DNA of 63,979 nucleotides, the filler included, from Octopus bimaculoides (taxonomy: Eukaryota), in the NCBI RefSeq assembly GCF_001194135.2. It is 9 parts of 8 records of this genome, joined end to end, with 100 filler letters (N's around TTAATTAATTAA, not from the genome) between each part and the next. Parts side by side here need not be neighbours in the genome. Positions count along the whole stretch, not along the records: positions 1 to 2,579 come from NC_069001.1; positions 2,680 to 4,830 come from NC_068981.1; positions 4,931 to 7,970 come from NW_026295350.1; positions 8,071 to 36,160 come from NC_068985.1; positions 36,261 to 41,141 come from NW_026376949.1; positions 41,242 to 58,640 come from NC_069005.1; 3 more parts are not named here. The stretch is one strand, 5' to 3'. A model generated the notes under the pieces. It saw nothing but the letters and a program-made list of their open reading frames with translations. It had not been told where the DNA came from and did not search any database. Of the stretch, positions 1-58,384 are shown one piece after another. Position numbers and translations under genes: made by a program. Numbering within the stretch: the first letter of the stretch is position 1; every line of letters starts with the position of its first letter.

Positions 1-274
1 AAGGTGTTTATAAGCCATTTAATAAACACACAAAAACCGTTAGATTCACATTTAGATTTAATTCACTTCACATTTAAATTTCAACATTTAAATTTAATTT
101 GCCAAAATATTTTCGTCGCTTTGAGACCGCGACCTGTTCACTGACAGCTCGGAATTTTGTCTGTGAACAGGCCGCGGTCTCAAAGCGACGAAAATATTTT
201 TGGCAAATTAAATTTGAATGTTGAAGTGTACCTAAAGGTTTTTGTGTGTTTCTTAAATGGCTTATAAACACCTT
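1..274. mobile_element. Fold-back element (inverted arms 1-146 and 157-274), PLE pLTR-like, each arm with a hammerhead-like motif
   Basis: aaggtgtttataagccatttaa... at position 1 is the reverse complement of ...ttaaatggcttataaacacctt ending at 274; the inner arms pair up to ~146/157. May extend beyond the window start. Confidence 0.7.
99..146 (-). ncRNA. Minimal type I hammerhead-like motif with G3-C8 core swap
   Basis: Minus strand reads tgtca-GTGAACA-g-gtcgc-ggtctcaaa-gcgac-GAA-AATATT-T-tggca: 5-bp stem I, 5-bp stem II, palindromic stem III, putative site UUU. Confidence 0.55.
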
Positions 275-2239
275 CCACGCTACAATTATTTATTTTTTGA
301 TATCTAGAAAGAAGCAAATAGGAAATGACTCTTACTGACCAGACAAAACAAAACTTCAGATTTTGTTACACAGTTGCTATTTTACTCTGCGGTTTCAGTC
401 GTATCTGCTTTACATCACATCTTAGCATCATTGGAAAAATGAAAATAACACTTTCAGTAATGTAGTCCTTGGCATATAAAAGGACATGTTGGTCTACAGG
501 GGACAAATTTTATCCCAGGTCTTCTCGATCAGATCTGACTAAAGTTTTAGTGTAGGAACAACAACAGTAACATAAGTAATTTAAAAGTACATTATGACTT
601 CATTTCAGTAGAGTTTATAGCAGCTGTGAATATTTTGATTTTTTTTTTTTTACTTTTACTATTCCTGAACAAAGTTAATTGATACAGCAGTTAGTCCCTA
701 GGGTATAGCGGAAACAGATGCTGCCGAAAGACATTCAGGAGAGTGGGGGATTAATTAGAAGGGGGCAAAAACGGTTTATGTATTTCTGTAGTGATTAAGA
801 GCTTTAATATTTCCGTGTTTAGCCCCTTATATCCTGCAAAGAAGCATGGAGGACTAGTTAATCAAAAAAATCCTCGCAAATGAACGACAAAATAATTTAT
901 AAAATATAGTAAAATAATACCAATAACAAGATATAATTAATTATTAAATGAAAACTAATTAAATGATGCTGAAATTGGAACATATACATAAAGTGCATTC
1001 AACAACCAATATTGTAAGCTAATCGTTATATAATGTATATCGGAACCAGATTTCTTGCCAAATAAACTAAGGTGTGTAGCAGAAAATAACGGATTTCATA
1101 CGAAAAATAGTGAGTTATTAAATATTTAATTCTTTTCTAATGACATATCGGTTCGATATGAAATCAAAGACGGTGAGAAATATAGAAGAAAAATAAATGT
1201 TTTTCTGATATTTGTAATTACTGCTTAGTCAAAACAATGCTAAATCGGCAGAATTATGATAAAAATTATTCCAGCTGCGATAATCCTGTATTTTATGGTC
1301 TGCACTGGATTAGACCATGTAATGTGGTTTTTTTTTTTCGTTAATCGGTACAACAGAGATTAGTGTGGGATTTGAGTGCGTGTAGATGGTTGATGTTCCC
1401 AGGAAAACGAATGACCACATATTGAATGCTTTAAAATATATTATTCGATATGTTGACAACGAAAGTTGGATAAGGGCTGAGCGGGGGAAGGTGGATAAAT
1501 CAAGGCGACATGCTTGCACCAACGTTATTTGCTCTCTGTATGTATATGTAAAAGTGTGCGTATGTACGTATTTATTTATGTATATACGGGTGCATGTATA
1601 CATGTATATGGGTGTATAGTTGTATATTTCTACACGATAAAAACCAGGCTGACAGGATGTGATAAGTGAATATATAGACAACCCTCTTACATTCTACACA
1701 TTGAAATTTCTTACTATTCATCTTATAGTTTGTCTGTTTATATATATATATATATATATATACGTGAATATGTGTGTGTGTGTGTGCCTTTGTGCATTTA
1801 TGCGTGTATAAGTGTAGCTACTAATGTATGTGTGTGTGTGTGTGTGTGTGAGGGCTTCACATATAGACACAGCTTTTAGAAATACGTACGAGCATTCAAT
1901 ATATAGGCATGTATACATATATCAATATATCTTTGTGGATGAAACAAACAAAAAATTATTTCATGAAAATCTGCCAGTAGCGAACTTTTTTTTGCAGTTC
2001 GTTATGCCGAGAGAAAATTCGTTATCAACAGATTTTGTTATTGACAGGTTAAACTCTACGTACATTTATTGTAAAATGTAAAGTCTGCTTAAATAGGCAG
2101 CTATAAATTGTCATTTTTGTTCATGCATTATCAAAGATCTGAATCTAAGATCGACAAGTGTCCTAATATAAACCAATGTATAAGGGTACGTCATAGAATC
2201 TATCATAAAAGTTTCAGCAAGATAAGATATATCATAACT

Positions 2240-2415
2240 AAGGCGTCGTAGCGGCAAAATCATTAGCACGTCGGACAAAAAGCAAAAATGCTTAGCGGCA
2301 TTTCGTCAGTTTCTGCTTTCTGAGTTCAAATTCCGCCGAGGTCGACTTTGCTTTTTATCTTATAAGGGCGATAAGATAAATACCACTTGAGCATTGGGGT
2401 CGAAGTAAACCATTT
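2240..2415 (+). mobile_element. SINE family A (tRNA head + Nin/Deu-like domain), diverged copy
   Basis: Shares gagttcaaattccgccgaggtcgactttgc with the copies at 6054, 18938 and 54642. Confidence 0.75.
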
Positions 2416-2623
2416 ACAATGTACTGCAAAATTCCAAGTCTTGTACCGAAATTTGAAATGAATATCTCTATACAACTAACTACCTATCTACACATAAAGT
2501 AACATACCTAACCATACACTCACACAAGCACACATTTTCGTATATGCATATATATATATATATATATATATATATATATNNNNNNNNNNNNNNNNNNNNN
2601 NNNNNNNNNNNNNNNNNNNNNNN

Positions 2624-2635
2624 TTAATTAATTAA
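2624..2635. other. Assembly gap linker TTAATTAATTAA (recurs inside many N-runs)
   Basis: The identical 12-mer sits inside N-runs at ~2.6, 4.9, 8.0, 36.2, 41.2, 58.7, 61.5 and 62.7 kb. Confidence 0.95.
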
Positions 2636-56800: not shown

Positions 56801-57300
56801 GTTCATCTCCAATTGGGAACCAACATAGCCTTCATCCTTTGGGGATTGATAAAAAAAAACAAAAAAACTATCAGTCCTGGTTGGTGGATTGATGAAATTG
56901 TTTAGTGTTTCGATCAGGATGCTGTGTAGTTTCTGTTTCAGTTATTTCTTAATTCTCCTCACCAAAAGATTGTAAATCCCTAACTGCCACACCAAACCCC
57001 ATTTCATATACACCAGTGCATGTCAGAGAGTACACTGGTACATGCAGGAATGGTATATCTGGGAAACCTATATGCCATACAACTGCTGGTTCAAGAATGG
57101 CCTGGGGTTAAACAACAAGAACAACAACAAGATCAATAATAACAAAAACAACAATCTTAAAAATAAAGTGAATTAGATTTAATAGAGCAAGAGCAGGCAT
57201 AAGAAGTCCATTTTACAACCACCTTGCCCTGGGTTTGCCCTCACATGAGCAAGTGTCTTTGACTGTAGCCTTGACAATACTTTGTGAGAAGAATTTGGTA

Positions 57301-57508
57301 GAAGGAAACCATGTGGGAAATTACCTTATTTTGTAAAAGGCATCTGTGCTGGTGACAGGTAAAAGGCACCTGTGCCAGGGACATGTAGAAGGTATCTGTG
57401 CTAGTGACATGTAAAAGACACTCATGCCAGTGATACATAAAAGGCACTTATGTTGGTGACATGTAAAAGAAGGAAACCATGTGGAAAAGTGCCTTATTTT
57501 GTAAAAGG
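57301..57508 (+). repeat. 26-bp tandem array (~5 units) between two ~40-bp direct repeats
   Basis: ggcacctgtgccagtgacatgtaaaa-like units; gaaggaaaccatgtgg...ccttattttgtaaaagg at 57301 and 57469. Confidence 0.65.
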
Positions 57509-58053
57509 TGAAGAGAAGGAAAGAAAAGAAGAGAAAAGAAAGAATAGAGGAGGGGAGGCATTTGATTGAAGAAGGGAGGCATTTGATAGAAGAAGGGGGA
57601 CAGGATGGCTGGAATTGAAGAAAGGACACCTTAGTCCTTCCCATCCAAGGCATTGTCTTCCCCTTTCCACTTTATCTCTTCTCCATTTCTTTTCCTTCCC
57701 CCCTGCTACCTGTACCATTTTTTCAGTGTTCTTCTTTGTTATAACCAGAAATGGCTCAACGAAAGTAGCATTAAGTTTTTAGGTCGTTCAATTTTTCTCA
57801 ACTGATCAATAGACCAATTGAGTAAACCTATCAGTAATGTACCTATAATGACTACTGGAAACAGCCGCATGGCAAATTTATTCCAATAAAGGGAAAACAT
57901 GTAGTAATCATTTATATATTCATTTTGCAAGATTCTTGATGTGAAATCGTGTGTTGAAACAGATATTGTTGTATTTTAGCCAATAAAAACACATGCACTA
58001 TATATTTGGTGTTAATTTGCTTCAGCTTTATTTTTACATTAATCGTATTTCGG

Positions 58054-58093
58054 CCAGAGTTCTTTCATCATACTTCTGTGACCTCATCAGTGG
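58054..58093 (-). ncRNA. Degenerate minimal hammerhead motif
   Basis: cca-CTGATGA-g-gtca-cagaagta-tgat-GAA-AGaaCT-C-tgg: intact core, 3-bp stem I, 4-bp stem II, near-palindromic stem III, CUC site. Confidence 0.45.
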
Positions 58094-58384
58094 TTCTTTG
58101 CTTTCTTCTTTCTTATTTGTGTGTCTTTCCTTGCTAACGATCAGCCATTTTGACAAAATACAACAATATGTAGTAATCATTATTTATACATTGTCTTGTA
58201 TATCACTGTGTGTAAAAATCACAGATTTACAATATAGAATTGTGATGAACTATAACCTTGGACCCTGCCAAGTTCTTTACTAATCTAAACAATATTGTTC
58301 GCCTGGTGTGCTAACAGAGAGTTTACAAAGTATTTTGCTTGGATTGATAATCCCTCACAAATGACTCTGTTATATATATATATA

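What the first reader, a model, noticed from the sequence alone, without database searches (positions are those of the whole stretch)
1..58181. Recurring architecture: short fold-back elements carrying minimal hammerheads from four unrelated families
Seen: four loci with no mutual sequence similarity (1-274, 27793-28215, 44750-45087, ~57900-58181) each combine inverted arms with a type I hammerhead layout. All have a (near-)palindromic stem III (AAUAUU, ACGU, ACAUGU, AGaaCU), and three have an extra purine after A9. Established: Penelope-like element pLTRs carry minimal hammerheads thought to cleave as dimers, and PLE insertions are often inverted and 5'-truncated. Inference: these are non-coding PLE-mobilised units (retrozyme-like), possibly an abundant and unannotated ribozyme-retroelement system in this genome.
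Basis: partly seen in the sequence, partly recalled or inferred. Interest (0 to 1): 0.75.

Follow-up and report, generated by a model that had tools for sequence, protein, structure and literature searches.

The report
Penelope transposon ends carrying hammerhead motifs
The four fold-back repeats are real and each carries a hammerhead-shaped RNA motif predicted to cut itself, but three are broken-off ends of protein-coding Penelope-type jumping genes and only one is a likely non-coding 350-base parasite, so this is mostly a known kind of transposon debris with two unusual details (a flipped core base pair and a tRNA-like leader).

Summary
In detail: four repeat families (F1-F4) each have a minimal type I hammerhead layout and an inverted arm. 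The 'non-coding system' reading mostly fails. F1, F2 and F4 are 5'-truncated 3' ends of coding Penelope-like elements (PLEs): RT/GIY-YIG coding sequence lies upstream on the same strand in other copies (F1 10 of 30 loci, F2 22 of 30, F4 at least 3 of 30), and for F2 also inside this window. The fold-back is likely an insertion by-product: 74 of 80 resolved head-to-head pairs join one long and one short 3' end, the known PLE tail. F1 and F4 are distantly related. Only F3 fits a non-LTR retrozyme: a 347-352 nt circularly permuted unit, six two-ribozyme tandems, a covarying rod, no ORF found. RNA reads show no ends at the cut sites and no evidence of circles. Two details were not found in print: F1's G3-C8 core (102 exact copies) and F2's tRNA-like A/B-box leader, where many copies start. 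The scan noted all of this before, in this genome (fold-backs, retrozyme) and in others (G3-C8, tRNA leader). Verdict: known kind with variants, interest 0.33.

The parts
1..146 (-). F1 inverted arm; its outer end is cut by an assembly gap in G000
100..146 (-). F1 minimal type I hammerhead layout with G3-C8 core (position 3 at 141, N17 at 105), 5-bp stems I and II, extra G after A9, palindromic stem III
145..291 (+). F1 second arm, ending at the short 3' end; hammerhead copy at about 156-205 damaged in stems I and II
13873..14489 (-). Second, older F2 copy that still carries the C-terminal GIY-YIG coding sequence (14290 to 14126) plus an inverted piece (14304-14489); its hammerhead has lost the 3' half
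27777..27789 (+). F2 target-site duplication, left copy (13 bp)
27790..27945 (-). F2 inverted arm with the short 3' end; intact hammerhead at 27843-27888 (C3 27883, N17 27848)
27947..28018 (+). F2 tRNA-like leader: A box from 27951, B box from 27996, at tRNA spacing; acceptor stem broken
   Evidence: not detected by ARAGORN or Rfam
27947..28225 (+). F2 main arm: leader, TAA array, hammerhead (C3 28104, stem I mismatch), long 3' end with tail
28226..28238 (+). F2 target-site duplication, right copy
44691..44816 (-). F3 inverted arm with the long 3' end (tail), internally deleted
44812..45089 (+). F3 main copy, about 280 nt of the 350-nt unit, folding as a rod with the hammerhead at its tip; short 3' end running into (TA)n
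44878..44920 (+). F3 type I hammerhead (C3 44884, N17 44914), 6-bp stem I, 3-bp stem II with a C-A mismatch at its base
57899..57912 (+). F4 target-site duplication, left copy (14 bp)
57913..58152 (-). F4 main copy with the long 3' end; hammerhead at 58054-58093 (C3 58090, N17 58057)
58155..58169 (+). F4 15-nt inverted arm (copy of the short 3' end), pairing with 57963-57977
58168..58181 (+). F4 target-site duplication, right copy

Best explanation
Three of the four loci (F1, F2, F4) are 5'-truncated 3' ends of protein-coding Penelope-like retroelements and the fourth (F3) is a likely non-coding 350-nt retrozyme that would borrow a Penelope enzyme, and in all four the fold-back is likely made at insertion rather than encoded as a unit. 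Shown here: the hammerhead layouts, the upstream coding sequence for F1, F2 and F4, two fixed 3' ends per family 30-62 nt apart, the pairing of one long with one short end in inverted copies, the target duplications, and F3's permuted tandem unit with a covarying rod. Inferred from PLE biochemistry (PMC11167929): the enzyme nicks both target strands and starts reverse transcription at two nearby sites in the RNA, so two cDNAs that both stop early and are joined head to head give a hairpin with the tail on one side. Inferred and untested: the hammerheads cut slowly, as dimers through the palindromic stem III or with protein help; F3 multimers are cut to monomers and circularised.
For: F2: ORF ends about 30 nt before the leader; hammerhead within 500 nt downstream in 22 of 30 loci picked by the ORF end; open frames of 209 and 276 aa; GIY-YIG look-alikes in the ESM Atlas, score 0.97, family on 12-28% of members; window copy 13873-14489 has the same coding end. 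F4: L075, L082, L085 share over 1500 nt upstream that translate to RT and GIY-YIG motifs; RVT_1 E=8e-4, below the curated cut-off. F1: 10 of 30 loci picked by an endonuclease end (one is the query locus) have F1 on the same strand 699-1147 nt downstream, across a low-complexity UTR. 3' ends are bimodal in all four families; long+short in 33 of 35, 22 of 22, 13 of 16 and 6 of 7 resolved pairs. TSDs of 13 and 14 bp. F3: 449 exact half-core matches; 6 loci with two hammerheads 347-352 nt apart; 7 of 30 position-picked copies cross the unit junction, none shares other upstream sequence; 13 of 46 pairs change on both sides, 0 of 500 shuffles reach this, slid controls give 1-6; plus strand z -5.0 against minus strand -2.7.
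Against: No full-length element with two terminal repeats was recovered. 20 of 30 endonuclease-picked loci show no same-strand F1 within 1.5 kb (many have gaps), and 8 of 30 ORF-end loci show no F2 hammerhead. Pfam gave no hit above cut-off for any ORF piece. That a family has coding copies does not exclude that many short copies come from a shorter non-coding master; F2's clustered 5' ends suggest this. For F3, lack of an ORF rests on 66 loci with 1.5-kb flanks and four protein pieces (one hit, downstream). RNA reads show no pile-up of ends at the predicted cut sites and about equal numbers in both directions. The covariation counts sequences of related subfamilies, not independent events. 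Six resolved pairs break the long+short rule.
Confidence: 0.87

Rival explanations
1. One reading: all four are non-coding PLE-mobilised units (retrozyme-like) whose fold-back shape is part of a functional RNA.
For: Most sampled copies are short and carry no ORF; F3 fits; F2 has a preferred 5' start.
Against: F1, F2, F4 continue upstream into coding sequence. Arm lengths and junctions vary from copy to copy, so no fixed fold-back master exists. Perfect antisense arms would sequester the hammerhead (inference).
Confidence: 0.07
2. F2 has a double life: its terminal repeat holds a tRNA-derived Pol III promoter, and most short F2 copies come from Pol III transcripts that start at the leader, so they are SINE-like progeny rather than random truncations. 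This can be true together with the main explanation.
For: A and B boxes at exact tRNA spacing, 1 match in the window against 2 of 300 shuffles. 13 of 24 arms that reach the leader start within -7 to +9 of tRNA position 1 (four gap-bounded arms dropped). Depth steps up about 5-fold in RNA and about 8- to 15-fold in X16 contigs at the leader.
Against: A small hairpin overlaps the leader start and could stop or redirect the RT. 11 of 24 arms start inside the leader and 16 of 44 do not align to it. No tRNA call by ARAGORN or Rfam. No RNA start pile-up. The sample was picked by likeness to the window copy.
Confidence: 0.45
3. F3 is not an independent retrozyme but tandem-duplicated terminal repeats of a coding PLE that I did not find.
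For: It has PLE-type long and short ends and inversions; retrozymes are proposed to derive from pLTRs (bioRxiv 10.64898/2026.07.22.740005); only 6 two-ribozyme loci against 449 half-cores (both exact patterns).
Against: Wherever copies extend far enough 5', they run into the unit's own 3' end; several subfamilies keep the same unit length and rod by compensatory change.
Confidence: 0.15
4. The fold-backs are DNA-transposon MITEs with terminal inverted repeats and the hammerhead layouts are chance.
For: F1 and F2 look like long palindromes; Rfam shows no hammerhead hit.
Against: Ends are unequal and 5' junctions variable; upstream retroelement ORFs; position 3-8 stays paired as C-G (F2 17 of 17, F3 18 of 19, F4 23 of 23), G-C (F1 19 of 22) and U-A (F5 13 of 16).
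Confidence: 0.02

Closest known systems
Minimal type I hammerheads in the pLTRs of metazoan Penelope-like elements (Cervera and De la Pena 2014, PMC4209133; parts 1-2 of 4 read)
   Same: [quoted passage not shown]
   Different: F1 has G3-C8, which the parts read do not mention; F3 has a C-A mismatch at the base of stem II.
EN+ PLE insertions with inverted 5'-truncated copy and tail (Craig et al. 2021, PMC8557442, passages; anole Poseidon PAc, PMC11167929, passages)
   Same: C-terminal GIY-YIG after RT; two 3' ends; tail at one end; (TA)n targets. F1 and F4 carry the cysteine linker described for Neptune/Nematis; F2 lacks it, like Penelope/Poseidon.
   Different: Tails of F1, F3, F4 are 51-62 nt, longer than the 30-40 nt given there; F1 has a 0.7-1.1 kb low-complexity UTR; F2 has a tRNA-like module in the repeat. 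Clades were not tested by an RT tree.
Metazoan non-LTR retrozymes (Cervera and de la Pena 2020, PMC7229834, passages and section 14; Li et al. bioRxiv 10.64898/2026.07.22.740005, parts 1-3 of 5)
   Same: F3: non-coding 350-nt unit (mussel 350-390 nt), type I hammerhead per unit, GC 41-43%, highly self-paired, monomers and dimers dispersed.
   Different: No long arrays seen (at most two hammerheads per locus); cleavage and circles not shown; F1, F2, F4 do not fit.
Schistosome SINE-like hammerhead elements, Sm-alpha and Sj-alpha (seen only through the review PMC6765202, passages)
   Same: A Pol III-type promoter next to a hammerhead, as in F2.
   Different: Those are non-coding tandem repeats; in F2 the leader sits about 30 nt after the stop codon of a coding PLE and upstream of the hammerhead.

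Membership tests
EN+ Penelope-like element (F1, F2, F4) | RT plus C-terminal GIY-YIG ORF upstream of the repeat on the same strand | tested here: met
   F1 10 of 30 loci; F2 22 of 30 and window 14290-14126; F4 L075, L082, L085. Domain names rest on motifs, sub-threshold Pfam hits (73) and Atlas look-alikes (74, 75).
EN+ Penelope-like element (F1, F2, F4) | Two 3' ends separated by a tail; inverted 5'-truncated copy | tested here: met
   bimodal ends, 61 of 64 resolved pairs long+short in these three families
EN+ Penelope-like element (F1, F2, F4) | Target-site duplication or microsatellite target | tested here: met
   13 bp (F2) and 14 bp (F4) duplications; F1 window copy abuts a gap and cannot be scored
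EN+ Penelope-like element (F1, F2, F4) | Full-length ORF flanked by two terminal repeats | tested here: inconclusive
   Seven 7.5-8.5 kb regions gave only truncated or broken ORFs
EN+ Penelope-like element (F1, F2, F4) | Clade by RT phylogeny | not tested
   Only the cysteine linker was read: present in F1 and F4, absent in F2 (definition)
EN+ Penelope-like element (F3) | ORF upstream of the repeat | tested here: not met
   0 of 36 and 1 of 30 loci hit by four PLE protein pieces, the one hit lying downstream
Non-LTR retrozyme (F3) | Non-coding unit of 170-400 nt in head-to-tail repeats, one type I hammerhead per unit | tested here: met
   6 loci, period 347-352 nt, longest stop-free frame 48-83 aa
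Non-LTR retrozyme (F3) | Highly self-paired RNA | tested here: met
   Circular fold z -3.3 to -8.4 on 25 shuffles each; covariation
Non-LTR retrozyme (F3) | Abundant circular RNA | tested here: inconclusive
   498-728 reads per 11.5-12.9 million; head-to-tail joints occur in RNA and in X16 contigs alike; library selection and strandedness not given
Non-LTR retrozyme (F1, F2, F4) | Non-coding tandem unit | tested here: not met
   Upstream sequence is coding, not the unit's own end
Minimal type I hammerhead (all four) | Core residues with paired positions 3 and 8, stems I and II, self-complementary stem III | tested here: met
   F4's stem III is only partly self-complementary (self-duplex +1.4 kcal/mol)
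Minimal type I hammerhead (all four) | Self-cleavage after N17 | not testable with these tools
   No end pile-up at F3 or F2 sites in fragmented RNA-seq, as also reported for the active PAc ribozyme
tRNA-derived SINE (F2 short copies) | Internal A and B boxes at tRNA spacing | tested here: met
   (box patterns recalled)
tRNA-derived SINE (F2 short copies) | Pol III transcript starting at the head | tested here: inconclusive
   5' ends of DNA copies cluster there; no RNA starts seen
tRNA-derived SINE (F2 short copies) | Master element independent of a coding element | tested here: not met
   The head lies inside the coding PLE's repeat

The most novel reading that the evidence does not exclude
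A coding Penelope/Poseidon-type element (F2) has captured a tRNA-derived Pol III promoter inside its hammerhead-bearing terminal repeat, so it spawns its own SINE-like ribozyme progeny and, in partial tandems, may be transcribed as a whole by Pol III; beside it, a Neptune-like family (F1) has fixed a G3-C8 hammerhead that still cuts and is invisible to CUGANGA-based searches.
Probability: 0.35. Interest if true: 0.6.

Novelty: new variant of a known kind. Interest (0 to 1): 0.33.

Why it matters
The recurring architecture is ordinary PLE biology and should not be pursued as a new system. What is useful: (1) one genome holds PLE hammerheads with C3-G8, U3-A8 and G3-C8, a natural test set for how far the core pair can be swapped, and standard descriptors would miss the G3-C8 family; (2) a tRNA-like leader inside a coding PLE's repeat would show directly how a SINE-like parasite can arise from its own autonomous element; (3) the near-strict long+short pairing of ends in fold-backs is a genome-scale fit to the two RT start sites measured in vitro; (4) F3 adds a likely cephalopod member to the retrozymes.

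Tried and rejected
Rfam and ARAGORN: no hammerhead or tRNA hit at these loci among rows shown (41 low rows not shown). F1 partner candidates rejected: the GIY-YIG upstream in L197 belongs to another family, F5, with its own 3' end (1 of 30 loci had F1, the query itself); the ORF in L253/L278 shares almost no DNA similarity (one 61-nt stretch) with the true partner's ORF and looks like a nested neighbour. An early idea that F1 is a fixed palindrome failed: junctions vary and long copies extend 5'. F1-F3 consensus similarity is only flanking (TA)n. No sequence link between F3 and any of the four coding families was found, so its helper is unknown. Run search: no RNA holder listed among indexed runs. 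Pfam did not name ORF pieces above cut-off. Lunse et al. 2017 was not held and may already report G3-C8 variants; bioRxiv supplements were closed. Sequence look-ups in earlier findings returned unrelated bacterial windows.
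Full report
Setting. The window is a pack of nine stretches of a 2.34-Gb animal genome, G000, with 145,327 contigs. It is likely an octopus; this rests on earlier scan notes and my recall of genome size, not on a test here. The four loci lie at G000 C21:10430171 (F1), C5:116591493 (F2), C25:20705702 (F3) and C25:20718852 (F4). Each belongs to a repeat family; first-look candidates were 1042, 1795, 3002 and 2470, which are not copy numbers.

Observation. All four hammerhead layouts are present. 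A strict CUGANGA descriptor found F2 and F4 (2 sites against 0.075 in shuffles). A descriptor allowing any 3-8 pair and one extra base on either side of stem II found F1, F2 and F3 (3 against 0.06); it was written after I had seen the motifs. F1 has no CUGANGA: its core has G at 3 and C at 8, with intact stems on the minus arm. The 49-nt F1 motif occurs exactly 102 times in G000, the reversed control 0 times. Among copies picked by upstream sequence rather than by the motif, 19 of 22 have G3-C8. F2, F3 and F4 keep C3-G8 (17 of 17, 18 of 19, 23 of 23), and a fifth family met on the way keeps U3-A8 (13 of 16). Inverted arms are long in F1 and F2, 40 nt in F3 and 15 nt in F4. The window copies share no similarity, but the F1 and F4 consensuses are homologous over their 3' ends.

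F4 is the end of a coding PLE. Of 31 anchored copies in 30 loci, three share more than 1500 nt upstream and three more share 630-1020 nt. That sequence translates into an RT catalytic motif, thumb, cysteine linker and GIY-YIG motifs. Pfam gives RVT_1 at E=8e-4, below cut-off. The window copy has a 14-bp duplication.

F2 is the end of a coding PLE without the cysteine linker. Walking 5' reached an ORF that stops about 30 nt before a tRNA-like leader; 22 of 30 loci picked by the ORF end have the hammerhead within 500 nt, 8 do not. Open frames of 209 and 276 aa were seen, with GIY-YIG look-alikes at score 0.97. The window itself has a second F2 copy at 13873-14489 that retains this coding end. 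The leader has A and B boxes at tRNA spacing (1 match in the window, 2 of 300 shuffles) but a broken acceptor stem, and neither ARAGORN nor Rfam calls it. Of 44 arms, 16 did not align to the leader, 4 were dropped as gap-bounded, and 13 of the remaining 24 start within -7 to +9 of tRNA position 1; 11 start further in, one of which is really an internal deletion. Read depth steps up at the same place. A Pol III start or an RT-stopping hairpin could each explain this.

F1 is also the end of a coding PLE. Longer copies extend through an (AC/ACAT)-rich region. One locus, L272/L277, ran on into an RT-thumb, cysteine linker and GIY-YIG frame about 42-47% identical to F4's. Searching with that endonuclease end gave 30 loci, 10 with F1 on the same strand 699-1147 nt downstream (one is the query locus) and 20 without, many with gaps. 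Two other apparent links were nested neighbours and were rejected.

F3 behaves differently. Copies that extend 5' run into the unit's own 3' end with a 350-nt period. An exact pattern found 6 loci with two hammerheads 347-352 nt apart, against 449 exact half-cores. In the first 30 half-core loci by position, 23 have an intact layout, 15 an adjacent inverted arm and 7 cross the unit junction; apart from inverted arms no upstream sequence is shared. Four PLE protein pieces hit 0 of 36 and 1 of 30 F3 loci, that one downstream. The monomer folds well as a circle (z -3.3 to -8.4), better on the hammerhead strand. In 39 of 46 extractable copies aligned, 13 of 46 pairs change on both sides and 97% of cells pair, beyond all 500 shuffles and all slid controls; related subfamilies inflate such counts. 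This fits a non-LTR retrozyme like the 350-390 nt mussel units (PMC7229834 section 14).

Why fold-backs. Each family has two sharp 3' ends, 62, 30, 58 and 51 nt apart on the references used. In head-to-head pairs with both ends resolved, 74 of 80 join a long with a short end (F1 33 of 35, F2 22 of 22, F3 13 of 16, F4 6 of 7); 13 further pairs touched gaps. PMC8557442 describes an inverted 5'-truncated copy and a tail often present at one end (passages). PMC11167929 shows in vitro that a PLE protein cleaves and extends both target strands, starts at two adjacent RNA sites that delimit the tail, and does not need hammerhead cleavage for insertion (passages). I infer that two short cDNAs, one per strand and start site, are joined head to head. 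The fold-back is then a by-product, and its variable junctions agree.

RNA. Three 2026 RNA-seq runs of 'organism A' gave 498-728 reads on F3 and 5691-7791 on F2 per 11.5-12.9 million records, about equal in both directions, with depth roughly following that of the X16 contigs (kind not on record) and no pile-up at the cut sites. This fits passive read-through, but library selection and strandedness are not given, the species may differ from G000's, and the same blank was reported for an active PLE ribozyme. It neither shows nor excludes cleavage or circles.

Prior knowledge. PMC4209133 (parts 1-2 of 4) reports minimal PLE hammerheads with an extra base after position 9, palindromic stem III, opposite-strand pairs 100-700 bp apart, a U3-A8 variant and low dimer activity. 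The bioRxiv preprint 10.64898/2026.07.22.740005 (parts 1-3 of 5) derives retrozymes from pLTRs. For G3-C8, three searches returned only engineered double mutants with partial activity (PMC3884650, PMC8495972, PMC11167929; passages); PMC3088659 names U3-A8 as the natural covariation (passages). Lunse et al. 2017 could not be read and may hold natural cases. For a tRNA-headed PLE, two searches returned a squid genome paper (listing only) and a review whose passages describe schistosome Pol III hammerhead SINEs (PMC6765202). The search for hammerhead, Penelope and octopus listed no paper on these families. Earlier scan notes report the fold-back and retrozyme readings in this genome and G3-C8 cores and tRNA leaders in other genomes; I had reached the first three readings before those look-ups, and took the idea of Pol III reading the whole element from them.

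Verdict. Observation confirmed; interpretation partly supported. Three PLE ends and one likely retrozyme, with two variants not found in print by my searches. Interest 0.33.

Noticed in passing
L218-L246 (e.g. G000:C3:98337740); inverted and truncated copy in L197/L217: A fifth coding PLE family (F5) whose hammerhead has a U3-A8 core in 13 of 16 copies and usually an extra U after A9.
   Followed up: partly
window 7664-7970: A perfect 110-nt inverted repeat around an 87-nt spacer, next to a gap; no hammerhead layout under my descriptors. Possibly a young fold-back of another family.
   Followed up: no
window 13873-14509: Second F2 insertion with GIY-YIG coding remains and an inverted piece.
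   Followed up: yes
window 37422-37590 and 38614-38782: Inverted pair of an abundant repeat also seen in many flanks; looks like a tRNA-type SINE family (label from recall).
   Followed up: no
window 41242-41766, minus strand: Open frame resembling the endonuclease of a non-LTR retrotransposon (label from recall of the motif, not searched).
   Followed up: no
L175:about 1440-1560 (minus strand index): Local triplication of the 45-nt F1 hammerhead segment, which would place three cores in tandem.
   Followed up: no
L253 / L278:849-5902: Another PLE family related to F4 (about 50% protein identity), with an inversion breakpoint inside the endonuclease, into which an F1 copy seems nested.
   Followed up: partly
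L013:1442 and 1480: In RNA reads, one begin/end pile-up at 1442 in run X23 and 83-130 reads per run leaving the F3 tail end at 1480 into one common sequence, likely a single expressed host transcript containing an F3 end.
   Followed up: no
window 27741-27753: The flank left of F2 shares a 13-nt stretch (12 of 13 by blastn with its mirror at the right end, E 0.87) and a short motif with the F3 tail; probably chance.
   Followed up: no
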